Part shown: positions 3,001 to 9,000 of the stretch, piece by piece
Position numbering within the stretch: the stretch's first letter is position 1
Layout: each line of letters starts with the position of its first letter
Assembly (NCBI GenBank): GCA_040754655.1
Contig: JBFMCE010000050.1
Span: 1-30,342 of the forward strand
Source of the DNA: Bdellovibrionota bacterium
GTDB taxonomy: Bacteria; Bdellovibrionota; UBA1018; UBA923
Length of the DNA: 30,342 bases
Direction of reading: 5' to 3'
Program-made: the position numbers

Positions 3001-6000
3001 CCGGAACTGAGTTGTACTCAGGATACGAAGGAATTCCTGCCGGAACCAAAGTTGACTTTGCCGTTTACGTTAGCGAAGGAAAGTTCTTAAGGATACTCAG
3101 CCGTGATAGAAAACACTTCTCTATTGAAGAACTCACTTGCAACTCTACCGGATGCAAACGCCGCCAGATTGCCTCTGGTCCCGAAATTCAATTTCTAAAC
3201 GAATTTACGCTAGAAAGTTTCAGCTATAACCTGAAAGCAACCCACGAGAAGATTTACGCTCTCTTGTATAGAGAGCTTCAACCAGAGCTGGTCATTTTTG
3301 ATCTTTCTTCAAAAAGAACCTCTCGCGTCTTCCTTCCCGAAATAAAAAGCGACGCCGGCTTTACAACGGTTGATCCTGCTTCGCCCACGCTAGCGTTCAA
3401 TGGGAAAAATGCGCTCATGGAAAACCTTCAAGTCACTCTTGACCACAAGACACTTGAAATCCTTGAAGTTAAGAACTTGGAGTCGAGGCCATTCAAAGAC
3501 TATGCGATGGAAGTGATGTACTCAAAGTCGCAAGATGGCACTGCCGTTCCGATCACAGTTCTTAAACCAAAAGGCGTCGTGGTTACCCCATCAACGCCGT
3601 TGATGGCCTATGTTTACAGTGAATACGCGACCCCAGGAATTCCTTCCTGGATGGGAAGAGAACATGTCGAGCCCCTCTTAAGACGAGGTCATGTCATCGC
3701 GTTCGCCCATGCCAGAGGCAGCGGCGACTTTGGAACCCCGTGGTACGAAGCGGGATCTCACAAGAACAAAGCGCGGGGCGTCGAGGATTTCGAGAGCGTT
3801 TTAAGAAAGCTGCACGAGTCAGGCATTTCTAGCCCTGATTTCACGGCGATCAAGGGCTTTAGCGCTGGAGGTACAATGATCAGCGTTACACTTGCAAAGA
3901 CCCCTGAGCTTTTCAAAGTTGCCTTTCTTGAGTGGCCTATCACCGACGCTTTGAACTTCGTCAGAGAAACCAAATCTTTTCTTGCGGGGCCTGAGTCATT
4001 GCGGCCCATCGGAAATCCTGACGAGTCTCTTGAAATGAAAAAGATCATCTTTAAAAGATCAGGGTTGCACCTTCTTCAGCCGCCGAAACGCAAAAACATC
4101 GTTTGGTTGACGACCTCTGCCGATGATTTGCAGGTTCCGCCTTCATTTCCTCTAGGCTATGAAACAAAAGCAACACGACTCGGCTATGAAGCTCACCTGT
4201 ACTCTTCGAGCTCGGGCGGTCACCTGGGCTATGAAACACCTGAAAACGGATGGCGGGCTTTGGCATTTGAATATTCATTGCTTGAACACGCCTTCAAGAA
4301 GGAATCAGAATAGGCACAAGCTTTGCTAAAGATCCCCATACCAATGAACAATTCCCCAAACCTGGTCTTCTTTTTCTAACGCAGAGGTGTTCTAAACATG
4401 GCTGAAATCAAAGGACTCAATCAAAACCAAACCCCTCCTCCTCAAACCCAATCCAAACAGCCAGGCAGTGAAAGAAAGATGCACCCTCGCCCCTTAGATG
4501 AAAAGTCAGATTACAGGGCCAGCGCAAAACTCGAAGGCAAAGTCGCTCTCATCACAGGCGGTGACAGCGGCATCGGGCGAGCAGTTGCCTTGCTCTATGC
4601 AAAAGAGGGCGCCGATATTTCTATTATTTATCTCAATGAACACGATGATGCAAAAGAGACTCAAAAACGCGTGGAAGCGCTTGGCCGGCGCTGTCTTTTG
4701 ATCTCAGGCGACGTTGGAGACGAGCGCTTTTGCGGCCAATCAGTAGAGGAAACAGTCAACCGACTAGGCCATCTTGATATTTTGGTGAACAACGCTGCTG
4801 AACAACACACTCAAGCTAAACTTGAAGACATCAGCGCCGAGCAGCTTGAAAAAACTTTTCGCACAAATATCTTCGGATATGTCTACATGGCAAAGGCAGC
4901 ACTCAAGCACTTGCCTCAAAGAGGTTCGATCATCAACACCGCCTCGATCACGGCCTTCCGAGGGAAACCCAATTTAATTGATTATTCCGCCACTAAAGGC
5001 GCCATTGTCGCCTTCACTCGGTCGCTTTCACAGTCTCTTCGTGAAAAACAGATTCGAGTCAACGCCGTGGCTCCCGGCCCCGTATGGACCCCGCTCATCC
5101 CCTCTTCTTTCGATAAAAAGGAAGTCAGCGAGTTTGGAGAAAATACTTTTCTCGGGCGACCAGCAGAACCTTCTGAAATCGCTCCTTGTTATGTTTTCTT
5201 AGCGTCAGATGCAGACTCTCTCTTAATGACTGGCCAGACGCTGCATCCCAACGGCGGCGAAGTCATCGCGGCGTAAGAGAACTTTCAAGTTGCCTGAGGA
5301 GAGGGACAATGGCGTGGCGTGCCCTATCTATTCACCATGCTCATCCGACCACCATGACGCTCATCACGGTCCATGAGTCATGCTTTCAATTCTCATTTCA
5401 AAGGCATGCTTTTCGATCGCGCTTCCATCCACCGGAATTGCCCACAATTCCGCATTCCCGCACGCGACATAGGAAGCAAAGACCACATCCCCAATCCGAT
5501 GCACCTTGCTAAACGTGTAGCCTTGGCACTGAGCGGGCGTGCTCTCACAAAGAATCTGCCGGTCTTCTACTGCGATACAGCTCTTGTTTTCGGCAGGATA
5601 CCAAGTGAGCGCAGTCGTCGAGTCTTCAAAAGACCCAAACGAAACATCGATGACTATGCCCGGCAGATCACGCAATTCATTGGCCTGAGCTGAAACCAAC
5701 GAATAGCGAGCCTCTCTCGCTTTAAGGTCTTTTGTCTGAGAAAGATCGCCTGATCCGATCACGAGCACCTGATCTTTTTCAGATTTCGCGGCAATAGGGT
5801 TGGGAACATCGATGGGCATCGTGAACTCGAGTGCAAGACTGCGGATATCAATGATCGCAAGGCCTGACTGGGGTTCTGGGGCCCAGACCCTGCCTCTTGC
5901 CAAACGCTGCGCTACCACTGCCATGCGCCCTCCGCTAAGCCACAAGATCTGAGAGAGCTCAGCAGACGAGTCTGACGGATCTTTGAGCGTGCCCAGATCG

Positions 6001-9000
6001 ATACCACCCACACGCTGAGACAGATCAGCCGAAAAGACATCAACGGTATTTGACTCAAAACTGCTCACCCAAACCCTGCCAAGGCTATCACGAGTTGCGT
6101 ACTGAGGGTTTGAACCCTCAGGAAGCTCAATGCGCTTTTCAATCTGGCCATCTTGCCCCTTAAGCCTGCTCAAAGAATCTTTCGTCTGACGGGTGAGCAT
6201 GAAAATGCCGTCGTTTCCATCAGTCAAGAGCCTCACGTCATTTCCGGTGACAAGAATCTCTTTTGACTTTGAATCTGACTTGAGATCAAGGCGAAAAAGT
6301 TTTCCGCCATTTTGGTAATTGGTAGTTGAGAGCCAAAGCCCATTTGCCTGGTTCCTTGTTTTTACCCGTATGTTCTCACTGAACTGCACGGTTGCGCTGC
6401 CAAGCTTCTGAGGTTTTCCCCCACAACTTGTGAAGCTCAAAACGCTAACAACAACCACGTTTGAAATCAAAATGCGCAAAATACGCTGACTGTTTTTCAT
6501 AGAACAACCTCCAACTGCAAACGCACTTCGCGCTGCATGAATTCTGGCTCGATAATATTCGTTCCGGCAGTCCCCTCAAATTGCAACGGCTGGGTCGCAT
6601 CAGGATAAAGCACAAGGTTTTTTGCCACCAATCTTAGGTCCCACGTTTTCTTTTGATAGCCTACGAAGGCCCCCGCTCGATGAAGTGCAGGAAGCCTTAG
6701 CAACCCCACCGAATCTCGCGCCTCTTCACTTCGGTAATGGTAAGTGGTTCCAAAAAAAACACGGCCCAAGGCGTATTCCGCCTCAGACTTGGCACTTAGG
6801 GCGGGCCTGCCCGGGACGTCGTGACCTCGCTGCCAATTGATCTGAGAATCATTCAAAGCAATTTGATATGTGACAGCGCCAAGCCATTTCATTTTTTCAA
6901 AGTAAGCTTCAGTTTTCAGCTCAGCACCTCTTGCCCAAACCCCTTCAATGGGAAGCGTTCTTGCCTCTACCGGCGAAGTGCCCACTTGCACTGGCGAGTT
7001 TTGACTTTCTTCCGAAAAGACGTGCGCTGAAATAAAAACAGATTCTGTTGACCACCACGGCCCGGTCTCTAGGCGAATCCCGGTTTCACTCGGCAAATCG
7101 AGAGACTCTTTTAATAGGGCGCCGTCGCCAAACCGCTGAATAGCTGTCGGTGTGATAGCATACCTGCGCGCTCTTGCAGCAACCCCGATTGGAATTCTTT
7201 TAGTAGAAGAAAGCTCGGCACCCACGTCCCAAATAAGGTCTGTCTTCTTTGTTTTAAGCGCTGTCTTGTCTTCGAAAACCTCTGAGAGCGCGTGTGCAGA
7301 GAGCTCTAGCCACCGGTTTTTCAAGTTTTCAAGGCGTGCCCTGCCTTTAAGAGAAGAGCGCGAAAACGACAGGTTTTGTCCGCCAAAATACGTCCTCTCT
7401 AAAGACTCATGGTACCCATCAAGGGTTGTAGAGACTTTGCCGCCCCACTGGGCGCGCAGCTGCGCGCCTCCCTTTATGCCATCTGTTGAGCTTGAAGTTT
7501 GATTCAAAGCCCTTGCTTCATACTCTGATTCTTGGATCTGACCATAAGGCAAAACCTCAAACTGCCCGACCGTCAGTTTTGATGAACCAAGCCACTGAGA
7601 CTGTTGTTTTTCACCAAGCATGCGTTGGCTTGCTCGCACATTCGAAAGGCGCCCATCTCTTTCGAGGATCGCGGTCCATTCTTTCTGATAGGCCCTGAGC
7701 TTGACATGGTGCTGTTCGTCTTTGTTTTGAAACGAACGAACCGAATCGTCGCGCTTGTCTTGAAAGGTTCCGCCATTATCCCAATAACGAATATCTCTGC
7801 GATCTCTTGCAAGCCCCGCTTCAATTTCAACATCAGTCTTTGAGAGTTTACCTAAGAGGCGCGCCTTGAGCCTTTGGTCTTGCGAAAGATCTATTTTGAA
7901 TTGTGTAACCCAGTTTCTTTTTTCTAACTCAGGCTTAAGTCTCCAAACGTTGTTACGCCGATGGATAGAAAGATCTTCGGTGCCTTCCAAGGTTTTAAGC
8001 TCAATGCCAAGCTCATTGACCGGGGCATCGAGCACCTTAGCCCCGACTCCGGCTTCTGCTTGAATGGTCTCTTGTTTTCGAGGTTGCGTTTGAGCTGGCC
8101 TCTCAGCCTCAATCACGACTTGAGGCGCAACATAGGCTTCAGTCTGCTGTGTTTCTTGCTGAGCATGTGCCAGCTCACCTGATCCAAGGCACCCCAGAAA
8201 GAGCGCCAAAACAAAATGCTTCATGAGATCTGCGCGGCAATTTTTGCCTGTAAAAAGGAGTAAACGGAAAAAGGTGGTCCCAGAATGATACGAAAAGACA
8301 TCTTTGCTCCTTTGGCCTGATTCCGAGGGCGAATCAAAGGTTTTTTATTTCGGGTATCCTGGCTCATCCGGGTCGTAGTACGTTTACTTCGGCCCAAGAA
8401 TCACAGTTGCGGTCCAGCTGAGGAGTTGCACCTCAATTTCCCCGTTTGGGTTGAATTTGATGAGTCGTTTACGACAAGAGCTGCTGGGTTGTCAATCGAC
8501 GGTGTTAATCAAGTCTTGCGCCCACATCGAGCAGATTTTACCTAGAAACATGGCGAGAAGGCTTGCTCTCTTTATCTCCAGCAAATCCCTGCCTCGCAAA
8601 GTCAATTCTTCGGTCACAAACGACGATAAGAGACCGAATGAACTCTAGTTTTTTCAGTCATAAAAAAGCAGTCTTCGCGCGCATTTGTTCACAGCAGCGG
8701 CTGAAGTTGCGATCACGGGCTAGGTGGTTCACCCACCTCTTATTGAGCCTCTTATTCAGCTTAACGCTAAACATTGATGCACTTAGCAACTCTCGCTCTA
8801 GTCATCTTTGCGGCACAGTCGCTGGCAGAGTACTGGGCTCATTTGAAGAATACCTAAACGCAACCGAAGTTCTGAGCGATTTCAACCAAGAACTCACTGA
8901 CCTTCAACAAGCACACCTCCGTGAAGTCATTGCCCCCATGCTTGGATCGAAGCTTCTCATCAAACATACCGATGGAAGACCACGCGCTTGCGCCGTTGGT

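What a model noticed while it worked through the whole genome (the two positions that open the first line are those of the whole stretch)
5364..8443. BtuB-BtuG-type vitamin B12 capture pair (TonB-dependent barrel + surface beta-propeller lipoprotein) behind a cobalamin [...]
Two genes without any Pfam, NCBIfam or Swiss-Prot match, g02072 (575 aa, C50:6497-8224) and g02071 (378 aa, C50:5364-6500), form an operon 128 nt downstream of a cobalamin riboswitch (C50:8352-8443, minus strand). Structure prediction shows that g02072 is a TonB-dependent-transporter-type outer-membrane barrel. g02071 is a lipoprotein (signal peptide, invariant Cys26) and a seven-bladed beta-propeller whose closest solved structures are all BtuG proteins, the cell-surface B12-binding lipoproteins that cap BtuB in Bacteroides. 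BtuG has been reported to exist only in Bacteroidetes. The pair is a conserved two-gene unit of a small family confined, as far as seen, to Bdellovibrionota. In this ge [...]
Evidence so far: Riboswitch: Rfam RF00174, 35.6 bits (gathering 31.5), E 2e-7; the aligned part includes the B12-box stretch (AGCCAGGAuACC) at high posterior probability (rna.tsv; call 121). Neither protein has a family hit at Pfam E<=0.05, except a 17.7-bit Vgb_lyase (propeller) hint, and neither has one at NCBIfam E<=0.05. g02071: AlphaFold2 on a 39-row alignment gave mean pLDDT 93.3 and pTM 0.88. In Foldseek vs PDB, ranks 1-13 are BtuG-family lipoproteins (BT2095 8okv, BtuG2 8bai/8ptf, BT1954 8bmz/8bn0/8bmx_D, BACUNI_02894 3dsm, BtuG3 8p97_B), with E 1e-11 to 2e-10 and target TM 0.71-0.76 at 10-12% identity. 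In the VIA-align second look at 970 chains, ranks 1-11 are all BtuG family, with Z 27.4-28.6 and r [...]
(Added by a program. Inside this text positions count along the whole contig: contig position 1 is position 1 of the stretch shown here. "Call 12" and the like, gene names such as g00115 and contig names such as C1 are that model's own, and its searches are not shown. The text may have been shortened before it was handed on; [...] marks where a part breaks off. The agent that wrote the report below was given it as the finding of a first reader that could run no searches.)

Follow-up and report, generated by a model that had tools for sequence, protein, structure and literature searches.

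The report
Riboswitch-controlled BtuB/BtuG-like B12 uptake pair
A vitamin-B12-sensing RNA switch in a Bdellovibrio-group bacterium controls an unusual outer-membrane barrel and a propeller lipoprotein that look like the B12-capture pair so far described only in Bacteroides.

Summary
Two overlapping minus-strand genes, a 575-aa barrel and a 378-aa lipoprotein, follow the genome's only cobalamin riboswitch (RF00174, 35.6 bits). The lipoprotein folds as a seven-bladed propeller that is closest to BtuG1-3. The barrel is homologous to TonB-dependent transporter barrels.

Sub-threshold RF00174 matches (22-26 bits) lie directly upstream of three more close barrel homologues and show compensatory base changes. 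Strong matches (77-89 bits) precede riboswitch-TBDT-propeller-TonB operons in another family of the same phylum, and those propellers are full-length homologues of this one (hhalign E 4e-38).

The genome encodes MetH, methylmalonyl-CoA mutase, lysine aminomutase, a PduO adenosyltransferase and a BtuFCD-like transporter. No CbiB, CobS, MetE or BtuB-type receptor was found (90% complete).

Two points need correcting or adding:
- The barrel has no recognisable plug domain; its N-terminal region is about 55 residues shorter than usual.
- Confinement to Bdellovibrionota is doubtful.

B12 binding, surface exposure and TonB dependence are inferred, not shown. Earlier unchecked notes of this scan report similar pairs in other phyla; the papers I read place BtuG only in Bacteroidota. 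Verdict: a new variant of a known kind.

The parts
8352..8443 (-). Cobalamin riboswitch aptamer core (variant: only model positions 45-169 of RF00174 match; B12 box present)
   Evidence: 35.6 bits against gathering 31.5; only RF00174 match in the genome; the orthologous elements upstream of three barrel homologues share the core and carry compensatory changes in two helices.
8221..8301 (-). 26-codon leader ORF. It has a strong Shine-Dalgarno (AAAGGAG, 8307-8313, 5-nt spacer), and its TGA overlaps the barrel ATG (ATGA). It may couple translation of the barrel gene to the riboswitch.
   Evidence: Read from the sequence and translated. The barrel ATG has no Shine-Dalgarno of its own. No equivalent leader ORF was seen in L054 or L055. 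Function is inferred.
6497..8224 (-). 575-aa outer-membrane barrel: signal peptide (residues 1-21), conserved LxPxVIEA TonB-box-like motif (residues 32-40), a short conserved N-terminal region (to about residue 105) and a TBDT-type barrel (about 106-575)
   Evidence: family alignment; AF2; TBDT folds only, Bacteroides BtuB1/2/3 and E. coli BtuB among the tied top rows; hhalign 98.9%, E 1e-17 to canonical TBDTs, barrel part only; no plug detectable.
8105..8125 (-). Codons for residues 34-40 (PQVVIEA), the TonB-box-like motif of the barrel
   Evidence: Conserved as LxPxVIEA in 11 of 11 family members. It lines up with LPEVxV of the canonical TBDTs only in a non-significant local alignment. The likeness to the E. 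coli BtuB TonB box is recalled, not tested.
5364..6500 (-). 378-aa lipoprotein (lipobox Cys26, codon 6423-6425) with a seven-bladed beta-propeller (residues about 50-378), BtuG-like
   Evidence: Cys26 in at least 90% of 41 sequences; invariant Cys308/Cys318; full-length homology to the riboswitch-linked propellers of family f18.

Best explanation
This is a B12-repressible outer-membrane corrinoid uptake unit of the BtuB-BtuG type. When intracellular cobalamin is high, the leader RNA binds it and shuts down expression, probably at the level of translation through the leader ORF's ribosome-binding site. When B12 is scarce, both proteins are made. The lipoprotein is anchored by Cys26 in the outer membrane and captures cobalamin on one face of its seven-bladed propeller. 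It sits as a lid on the barrel and hands the vitamin to it. The barrel passes the vitamin into the periplasm, with energy from a TonB protein. A BtuF/BtuC/ATPase system encoded elsewhere (contig C91) takes it across the inner membrane to MetH, methylmalonyl-CoA mutase and lysine aminomutase. Shown: the genes, the riboswitch and its conservation, the folds, the homologies, the gene neighbourhoods and the genome's B12 enzyme set. Inferred: ligand binding by the propeller, its surface exposure and lid position, TonB dependence of a barrel without a normal plug, and the way the riboswitch acts.
For: RIBOSWITCH. The match is above the Rfam threshold and is the only one in the genome.
- RF00174 matches of 22, 25.5 and 26.2 bits lie 10-35 nt upstream, on the same strand, of the barrel genes of G353, L054 and L055.
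- In G353 it is the only match at E<=0.01 in 3.8 Mb. In one search the two matches are the only RF00174 matches in 61,414 bases.
- Read from the alignments: the P4 hairpin reads GAGG/CCUC, CUGG/CCAG and CCGG/CCGG, and the B12-box helix reads CUG/CAG in the window against CGG/CCG in the three relatives. These are compensatory changes.
- On both protein trees the riboswitch-bearing members fall on both main branches.

DISTANT OPERONS. In family f18, RF00174 at 77-89 bits (full length) precedes a canonical TBDT (Plug plus barrel), a propeller lipoprotein and a TonB_C protein in L031, L032 and L040. The f18 propellers align with this family over 351 columns (hhalign E 3.8e-38). The barrels align over 405 columns (E 1.1e-17).

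FOLD. BtuG1-3 are the best matches of the propeller. Bacteroides BtuB1/2/3 and E. coli BtuB are among the tied best matches of the barrel.

PAIRING. Barrel and propeller are adjacent in the window and in 11 related loci, and their trees show the same two main clades. A TonB_C gene follows the propeller in 5 close-family loci.

COMPLEX PREDICTION. The result was 'weak support'. The score was 0.32 (runs 0.32, 0.32, 0.76) and the best of 3 controls was 0.00. That mark was reached by 116 of 157 solved complexes and 2 of 215 mismatched pairs, but at 0.60 or under by only 18 of the 157 and by both mismatches that passed. The runs agree in at least 34% of contacts and the partner pLDDT is at least 81. 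My own alignments were used. BtuBG complexes are solved, so the pass may come from likeness.

PHYSIOLOGY.
- Present: MetH (TIGR02082, 1167 bits), methylmalonyl-CoA mutase, lysine 5,6-aminomutase beta, BtuF-like, BtuC-like and ATPase genes, and a PduO adenosyltransferase.
- Not found: CbiB, CobS, MetE.
- The single Plug-bearing receptor of the genome matches heme-receptor models best and has no riboswitch.
- All 10 of 10 other pair-bearing genomes tested encode B12-binding-domain proteins.
Against: - No riboswitch was detected upstream of 8 of 12 close-family barrel genes, nor of 7 of 10 f18 operons. Those genomes have no RF00174 match anywhere at E<=0.01.
- The three close-relative matches are below Rfam's gathering score.
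- The window's match covers only model positions 45-169.
- Sequence gives no direct link to BtuG. P0002 has no DUF5074 or other Pfam match. The family profile A1 hits only single propeller blades in the PDB. The f18-only profile A7 hits nothing at E<=0.01. Only a profile of distant relatives of unknown origin reaches BtuG1 chains, at E 1e-9, and it reaches the YVTN propeller 1l0q just as well.
- BtuG leads other seven-bladed propellers by only about 2-3 Z. The siderophore lid XusB scores Z 23.2.
- The BtuG2 contact residues listed in PMC13616437 (section 3.4) could not be mapped.
- The barrel has no detectable plug, and there is no TonB gene next to the pair in this genome.
- The complex prediction gave only weak support.
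- The export signal that brings BtuG to the surface is described as a feature exclusive to Bacteroidetes (PMC6143338, passages).
- The assembly is 90% complete, so the missing genes are provisional.
Confidence: 0.72

Rival explanations
1. The pair takes up B12, but the propeller lipoprotein faces the periplasm. It would be anchored in the inner leaflet of the outer membrane, as BamB is, and would receive or hold the vitamin below the barrel. It would then partly replace the missing plug or hand the vitamin to BtuF, rather than act as a surface lid.
For: No surface-export signal is known outside Bacteroidota (PMC6143338; preprint 10.1101/2023.03.17.533168). The barrel lacks a normal plug. The complex prediction gave only weak support and no interface. 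BamB-type propeller hits appear among the weaker matches (rank 23, PQQ_2 hint).
Against: The best structural matches are the surface lids BtuG1-3, including their linker region (model ranges starting at residues 22-26 for 8bmx_D, 8p97_B and 8blw_B). The gene order, barrel then lipoprotein, is that of the BtuBG loci. A BtuF-like periplasmic binding protein already exists.
Confidence: 0.13
2. The barrel and propeller import another substrate, for example a siderophore or heme as in XusAB-type lid systems. In that case the riboswitch matches would be chance or unrelated regulation.
For: XusB is also a good structural match (Z 23.2; Atlas row 6). Most relatives have no detectable riboswitch. The barrel's fold matches do not single out BtuB (rows within 1 Z are tied).
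Against: Seven independent-looking RF00174 matches lie exactly in the 5' leaders of these operons, three at 77-89 bits, with compensatory changes. This is the only cobalamin riboswitch in a genome that needs B12 and has no other candidate receptor.
Confidence: 0.06
3. The pair takes up B12, but the barrel is not TonB-dependent. With its plug reduced it would work as a lid-gated diffusion channel.
For: No Plug domain in 0 of 11 members. The N-terminal region is about 55 residues shorter than in canonical TBDTs. There is no adjacent TonB gene in this genome. The Atlas shows clusters of TonB_dep_Rec barrels that mostly lack Plug.
Against: A TonB_C gene follows the propeller directly in 5 close-family loci. 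The conserved LxPxVIEA motif sits where a TonB box would be. The genome encodes 4 TonB_C proteins. VIA alignments start at model residues 47-57, inside the plug region of the targets.
Confidence: 0.09

Closest known systems
BtuB-BtuG complexes of Bacteroides thetaiotaomicron (BtuB1G1, BtuB2G2, BtuB3G3; PDB 8BLW, 8BMX, 8P97; Nat Commun 2023, PMC10404256; eLife 2018, PMC6143338)
   Same: A cobalamin riboswitch is followed by a TBDT-type barrel gene and then a lipoprotein gene. The lipoprotein is a seven-bladed propeller whose best structural matches are BtuG1-3. The barrel's tied best matches include BtuB1-3.
   Different: Identity is 10-14%. There is no DUF5074 or other Pfam match. No Bacteroidetes-type export signal follows the lipid cysteine (read from the sequence). 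The barrel has no recognisable plug. There are no BtuH/BtuJ/BtuK accessory genes, and btuFCD is not in the locus. The riboswitch lacks the outer helices of the Rfam model. The phylum is different.
Riboswitch-TBDT-propeller-TonB operons of family f18 in the same phylum (loci L031, L032, L040; not described in any paper found by my searches)
   Same: The propeller lipoprotein is homologous over its full length (hhalign E 3.8e-38). The barrel domain is homologous (E 1.1e-17). The gene order is the same, and a TonB gene follows as in 5 close-family loci.
   Different: The f18 receptors are canonical TBDTs with Plug, and their riboswitches are full-length at 77-89 bits. The window's barrel has lost a recognisable plug and its riboswitch is a shortened variant.
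E. coli btuB with its cobalamin riboswitch (BtuB structures 1NQE-1NQH, 2GUF)
   Same: Riboswitch-controlled outer-membrane B12 receptor with a 22-stranded-type barrel (2guf: Z 23.4, 442 residues aligned, rmsd 2.9). Inner-membrane BtuFCD-like genes lie elsewhere in the genome.
   Different: E. coli BtuB works without a lipoprotein lid and has a full plug. The TIGR01779/PRK10641 BtuB models do not match P0001.
XusA-XusB xenosiderophore system of Bacteroides (PDB 9HQK)
   Same: A propeller lipoprotein lid on a TBDT, with Z 23.2 to the model.
   Different: It ranks about 5 Z below BtuG. It has no riboswitch and takes an iron-related substrate.

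Membership tests
BtuG (B12-binding surface lipoprotein of Bacteroidota) | Seven-bladed beta-propeller closest to solved BtuG structures | tested here: met
   ranks 1-11 are BtuG family, Z 27.6-28.4, rmsd 2.7-3.5, 294-317 residues aligned. The next rows are at 25.7 and 25.6. TM by target 0.71-0.77 for the single-domain BtuG chains.
BtuG (B12-binding surface lipoprotein of Bacteroidota) | Lipoprotein signal with lipidated cysteine | tested here: met
   A signal peptide and Cys26 are read from the sequence. Cys26 is present in at least 90% of 41 aligned relatives.
BtuG (B12-binding surface lipoprotein of Bacteroidota) | Encoded next to a btuB-type receptor gene under a cobalamin riboswitch | tested here: met
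   for the window. for six related operons.
BtuG (B12-binding surface lipoprotein of Bacteroidota) | Sequence membership (Pfam DUF5074/YncE-type; BlastP E<=1e-10 to BT1490/BT1954/BT2095, as used in PMC6143338) | tested here: not met
   No Pfam match at E<=0.1 except Vgb_lyase. Profiles A1 and A7 do not reach BtuG chains. Only the distant set A8 does, at E 1e-9. That DUF5074 is the BtuG Pfam family rests on the Atlas labels and on recall.
BtuG (B12-binding surface lipoprotein of Bacteroidota) | Direct high-affinity binding of cobalamin through conserved polar contacts (Glu55, Gln93, Asn107, Ser131, Ser195, Tyr196, Gln219, Tyr239 of BtuG2; PMC13616437) | not testable with these tools
   No residue-level structural alignment or model coordinates were available. 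At 10-12% identity a sequence mapping is unreliable.
BtuG (B12-binding surface lipoprotein of Bacteroidota) | Surface exposure and stable lid complex with the receptor | tested here: inconclusive
   Complex prediction gave 'weak support': 0.32 against a best control of 0.00, with the calibration counts given in the For line. Surface exposure cannot be tested here.
TonB-dependent transporter (TBDT) | C-terminal TonB_dep_Rec-type beta-barrel | tested here: met
   hhalign to canonical TBDTs: 98.9%, E 1.1e-17, 405 columns. Foldseek and VIA return only TBDTs. 2 of 11 family members match PF00593.
TonB-dependent transporter (TBDT) | N-terminal Plug domain (PF07715) | tested here: not met
   0 of 11 members match Plug at E<=0.01. 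The profile of residues 22-135 against the plug region of canonical TBDTs gives E 0.12. Only about 84 residues lie between the signal peptide and the first barrel strand.
TonB-dependent transporter (TBDT) | TonB box and dependence on TonB | tested here: inconclusive
   A conserved LxPxVIEA motif lies near the mature N-terminus. A TonB_C gene follows the pair in 5 close-family loci but not in the window. The genome has 4 TonB_C proteins.
Cobalamin riboswitch (Rfam RF00174) | Score at or above the curated gathering score | tested here: met
   35.6 against 31.5 bits in the window. The three close relatives score 22-26 bits, below it.
Cobalamin riboswitch (Rfam RF00174) | Full aptamer architecture including the outer helices (model positions 1-44 and 170-189) | tested here: not met
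   In the window only positions 45-169 align. In the three relatives the outer helices align with many non-standard pairs.
Cobalamin riboswitch (Rfam RF00174) | Conserved core helices supported by covariation | tested here: met
   Read from the Infernal alignments: compensatory changes in the P4 hairpin and in the B12-box helix among four sequences. A formal count was not made, because the MAFFT alignment misplaces the 3' part.

The most novel reading that the evidence does not exclude
The barrel is a new class of BtuB-like transporter in which the plug has shrunk to a conserved segment of about 45-85 residues. Gating of the 22-strand-type pore would then depend largely on the BtuG-like lipoprotein lid. 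TonB would act on a minimal N-terminal element. The whole unit, with its own shortened riboswitch variant, would descend from a canonical riboswitch-TBDT-propeller-TonB operon still present in another family of the phylum. If so, lipoprotein-lidded B12 capture is old and widespread outside Bacteroidota and has evolved a plug-poor form.
Probability: 0.3. Interest if true: 0.78.

Novelty: new variant of a known kind. Interest (0 to 1): 0.6.

Why it matters
Published work describes BtuG as found exclusively in Bacteroidetes. That claim rests on a BlastP search of 313 gut genomes (PMC6143338, passages read). A 2026 review discusses relay components beyond Bacteroidota only for BtuH and BtuJ (PMC13616437, sections 3.4 and 10.2 read).

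This locus shows the same riboswitch-receptor-lid design in predatory or free-living Bdellovibrionota. There is also a graded series within one phylum, from canonical plug-bearing receptors to receptors without a recognisable plug.

It matters for three reasons:
- It gives an entry point for asking how lipoproteins reach the surface outside Bacteroidota.
- It raises the question of whether a TBDT can work with a minimal plug.
- It bears on how B12 auxotrophs without a BtuB annotation obtain the vitamin, which affects genome-based predictions of B12 cross-feeding.

Tried and rejected
- Word-based homologue searches found only 1 relative of the propeller and 4 of the barrel. An alignment query found no more.
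- The search for related loci with the propeller alignments A1 and A4 failed because no stretch was conserved enough. I used the barrel alignment A3 instead.
- A sequence bridge to BtuG is not clean. The mixed profile A2 hit BtuG1 chains at E 5e-10. The profile of f18 propellers alone (A7) hit nothing in the PDB at E<=0.01. The hits therefore come from distant relatives of unknown origin (A8), of which only 1 of 18 matches DUF5074.
- The 600-700-nt 'gaps' upstream of seven f18 receptors are not long leaders. They hold a conserved, divergently transcribed gene (codon-like conservation) and have no Rfam match at E<=1.
- The hairpin around the leader ORF's ribosome-binding site folds no better than shuffles (z 0.07). 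I therefore make no claim about a sequestering helix.
- The consensus scan found no promoter or terminator that delimits the operon. A TTGACA at 8490-8495 was seen by eye only.
- A formal covariation count was given up, because MAFFT misaligned the 3' half of the four aptamers.
- No model coordinates reach the script machine, so the position of the N-terminal segment in the lumen and the propeller's putative binding face could not be inspected.
- The search of earlier findings by place and by sequence returned nothing.
- Paper searches for BtuG with Bdellovibrio, and for BtuG with 'other phyla', found 0 papers.

Full report
WHAT IS IN THE WINDOW

On the minus strand, ORF 6497-8224 (575 aa, P0001) and ORF 5364-6500 (378 aa, P0002) overlap by four bases. 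They are flanked by a divergent helicase gene (8563-11280, plus strand) and a convergent SDR gene (4398-5276, plus strand), so the unit has exactly two genes.

Rfam's cobalamin model RF00174 matches 8352-8443(-) at 35.6 bits against a gathering score of 31.5. The match covers model positions 45-169 of 189 and includes the B12-box stretch. It is the only RF00174 match in the 3.78-Mb, 196-contig assembly.

Neither protein matches any Pfam or NCBIfam model at E<=0.1, apart from a 17.7-bit Vgb_lyase hint for P0002.

Between the aptamer and the barrel ATG lies a 26-codon ORF (8301-8221). It has a strong Shine-Dalgarno, and its TGA overlaps the barrel start as ATGA. The barrel start has no Shine-Dalgarno of its own.

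THE LIPOPROTEIN

P0002 has a signal peptide and a lipobox cysteine. Cys26 is kept in at least 90% of 41 aligned relatives, and Cys308/Cys318 are invariant.

An exhaustive phmmer search of 1.84 billion representatives gave 94 proteins at E<=1e-3, of which 36 are at E<=1e-30. AlphaFold2 on 41 of these gave pLDDT 94.2 and pTM 0.89.

- Foldseek against the PDB: BtuG1/2/3 chains take 13 of the first 14 rows shown, with TM by target 0.71-0.77 for the single-domain chains and 0.42 for the 626-residue 8blw_B. The archaeal YVTN propeller 1l0q is rank 2.
- VIA-align: ranks 1-11 are BtuG family at Z 27.6-28.4. Then come 1ri6 (25.7) and 1l0q (25.6). The siderophore lid XusB is at 23.2.

THE BARREL

Only four database relatives were found by word search. 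With seven more from genome loci I built an 11-row alignment.

The model (pLDDT 76.6) has residues 1-61 disordered, a poorly structured stretch 62-105, and then a large barrel. Foldseek and VIA return only TonB-dependent transporters. The tied top rows include Bacteroides BtuB3/BtuB1/BtuB2, PqqU, FrpB and E. coli BtuB.

Profile comparison with ten canonical TBDTs of the same phylum gives 98.9% probability and E 1.1e-17 over 405 columns. It covers the barrel only: P0001 residues 132-542 align with TBDT residues 194-644.

The evidence on a plug domain is negative:
- No member of the family matches the Plug domain (0 of 11), while 2 of 11 match TonB_dep_Rec.
- The N-terminal profile does not align significantly with the plug region (E 0.12).
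- About 84 residues separate the signal peptide from the first barrel strand, against roughly 135-165 in the canonical receptors.

Two conserved elements sit in this region: LxPxVIEA (residues 32-40) and a block of about 40 residues (54-91). The ESM Atlas lists several clusters of TonB_dep_Rec barrels that mostly lack Plug. Such proteins therefore exist, but as far as my searches went they are uncharacterised.

A search of 401 genomes of the phylum with P0002 found 20 with a match, G000 included:
- 8 close matches (32-38% identity);
- 11 distant matches (23-29% identity), all in family f18 (11 of 34 f18 genomes);
- none in the 6 other genomes of the window's own family.

I fetched 5-13 kb around each hit.

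Distant (f18) set. A canonical TBDT (Plug plus barrel), the propeller lipoprotein and usually a TonB_C protein follow each other. In L031, L032 and L040 a full-length RF00174 match of 85, 77 and 89 bits lies directly upstream. The f18 propellers are full-length homologues of the window's family (hhalign E 3.8e-38, 351 columns).

Close set. A whole-genome RF00174 search of 19 pair-bearing genomes at E<=0.01 gave six matches. Four of these lie directly upstream of the pair. One is the only match of genome G353 (22 bits), ending 13 nt before the barrel ORF of the window's closest relative. Two metagenome loci with barrel homologues, L055 and L054, carry matches of 26.2 and 25.5 bits that end 35 and 10 nt before the barrel ORF. 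These are the only RF00174 matches in 61,414 bases searched at E<=1.

Covariation. In the Infernal alignments the four elements share the GGUG hairpin, the CGCAAC segment and the B12-box region, and they show compensatory changes. The hairpin stem reads GAGG/CCUC, CUGG/CCAG and CCGG/CCGG. The B12-box helix reads CUG/CAG in the window and CGG/CCG in the three relatives.

Distribution on the trees. On trees of both proteins the riboswitch-bearing members lie on both main branches, among members without one. This fits an ancestral riboswitch that was lost or has diverged repeatedly.

Tally.
- Close family: 4 of 12 barrel loci with upstream sequence have the element.
- f18: 3 of 10 have it.
- Left out of these counts: L056 and L030, which are cut at the contig end, and L029, which has no adjacent barrel.
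- The genomes without the element have no RF00174 match anywhere at E<=0.01.

PHYSIOLOGY OF THE GENOME

The genome encodes:
- MetH (TIGR02082, 1167 bits, above the cut-off), methylmalonyl-CoA mutase (N- and C-terminal domain proteins) and lysine 5,6-aminomutase beta;
- a PduO-type adenosyltransferase;
- on contig C91, a BtuF-like binding protein, a BtuC-like permease and an ATPase, whose best specific models are BtuF/BtuC, below cut-off.

CbiB, CobS and MetE were not found. The assembly is 90% complete.

The genome's single Plug-bearing receptor matches heme/hemoglobin receptor models best, far below their cut-offs, and has no riboswitch.

The organism thus looks like a B12-dependent auxotroph whose only B12-regulated locus is this pair.

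As a falsification test, I checked ten other pair-bearing genomes, nine of them without a detected riboswitch. All ten encode B12-binding-domain proteins. Most bacteria do (12 of 14 controls), so this is weak support.

PAIRING AND TonB

Barrel and propeller are adjacent in the window and in 11 related loci. G373 has the propeller without a barrel, and L058 has a barrel followed by a different lipoprotein. A TonB_C gene follows the propeller in L023, L024, L026, L056 and L057. The window has none there, but the genome has four elsewhere.

The complex prediction gave 'weak support'. The score was 0.32 (runs 0.32, 0.32, 0.76) against a best control of 0.00. That mark was reached by 116 of 157 solved complexes and 2 of 215 mismatches, but at 0.60 or under by only 18 of the 157 and by both passing mismatches. 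The runs agree in at least 34% of contacts and the partner pLDDT is at least 81. I used my own alignments, and solved BtuBG complexes may be remembered by the model.

SEQUENCE RELATION TO BtuG

This is not clean.
- The family profile A1 hits only single blades of designed and NHL propellers.
- The f18 profile A7 hits nothing.
- A profile of distant relatives of unknown origin (A8) reaches BtuG1 chains at E 1e-9 over 165 residues. It reaches the YVTN propeller equally well.

I therefore call the protein BtuG-like by fold and context, not a sequence member of the BtuG family.

TAXONOMIC RANGE AND PRIOR KNOWLEDGE

Record titles name an Oligoflexia MAG and an uncultured Bdellovibrio for two relatives. 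The Atlas's nearest clusters to P0002 are unnamed families whose commonest phylum label is Myxococcota (score 0.96). DUF5074 clusters of Bacteroidota follow at 0.93. These are leads only, but confinement to Bdellovibrionota is not established.

In print:
- The eLife 2018 paper states that BtuG homologues are exclusive to Bacteroidetes, on the basis of BlastP at 1e-10 against 313 gut genomes (PMC6143338, passages).
- The Nat Commun 2023 paper treats BtuBG as a Bacteroides feature (PMC10404256, passages).
- A 2023 preprint finds lid-TBDT pairs almost only in Bacteroidota (10.1101/2023.03.17.533168, passages).
- A 2026 review discusses spread beyond Bacteroidota only for BtuH and BtuJ (PMC13616437, sections 3.4 and 10.2).
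- Searches for BtuG with Bdellovibrio and with 'other phyla' found nothing.

Supplementary files were not opened.

This scan's own earlier notes are AI-written and I did not check them. They report riboswitch-receptor-BtuG-like units in several other phyla. The general idea is thus not new within the scan.

VERDICT

What is distinctive here is the combination of four things: a Bdellovibrionota host, a shortened riboswitch variant, a leader ORF, and above all a BtuB-like barrel without a recognisable plug. This barrel descends from, or is sister to, canonical plug-bearing receptors that keep the same lipoprotein partner in the same phylum. Ligand binding, topology and energy coupling remain to be tested.

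Noticed in passing
window 8221-8301 (-): A 26-codon leader ORF with a strong Shine-Dalgarno. Its stop overlaps the barrel's ATG (ATGA), while the barrel start has no Shine-Dalgarno. This may be translational coupling downstream of the riboswitch. It was not seen in L054 or L055.
   Followed up: partly
G000 contig C91 = L062:5191-6639 (-): One 482-aa frame joins a PlsY acyltransferase domain (TIGR00023, above cut-off) to a BtuF-like periplasmic binding domain. BtuC-like and ATPase genes follow, and lgt, lspA and ileS precede it. It is either a fusion or two genes without an intervening stop.
   Followed up: partly
L031-L040 (family f18), upstream of the TBDT: Synteny is conserved: a divergently transcribed gene of about 186 aa abuts the receptor's leader. 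Further upstream lie two conserved secreted proteins of about 200 and 250 aa. None was characterised.
   Followed up: partly
L064 (G120:C4:2677032-2677128): A second, sub-threshold RF00174 match (29.5 bits) lies directly upstream of class I ribonucleotide reductase genes (large and small subunits). This is a plausible genuine B12-regulated target.
   Followed up: partly
L025:1809-2423 (-) and L027:1132-1755 (-): In genus g25 a further conserved lipoprotein of about 205 aa, with no Pfam match, follows the propeller gene. It takes the place of the TonB gene seen in other lineages.
   Followed up: no
L058:4336-5568 (+): A distant barrel homologue is followed by a 410-aa lipoprotein that does not match the propeller profile. 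It may be a different lid.
   Followed up: no
L023:8837-12322 (-) and L025/L028 upstream regions: In some relatives the barrel gene is preceded, with little or no gap, by unrelated genes: a 594-aa membrane protein with no Pfam match and then 247-aa and 323-aa ORFs that I did not scan (L023), an HNH-domain protein (L025), and further unscanned ORFs upstream in L025 and L028. The pair there may be transcribed from further upstream.
   Followed up: no
window 1806-1877 (-): A tRNA gene (RF00005, 65.7 bits).
   Followed up: no
window 8563-11280 (+): A 905-aa ResIII/DEAD-type helicase gene is transcribed divergently from the riboswitch. Only 119 nt separate its start from the aptamer.
   Followed up: no
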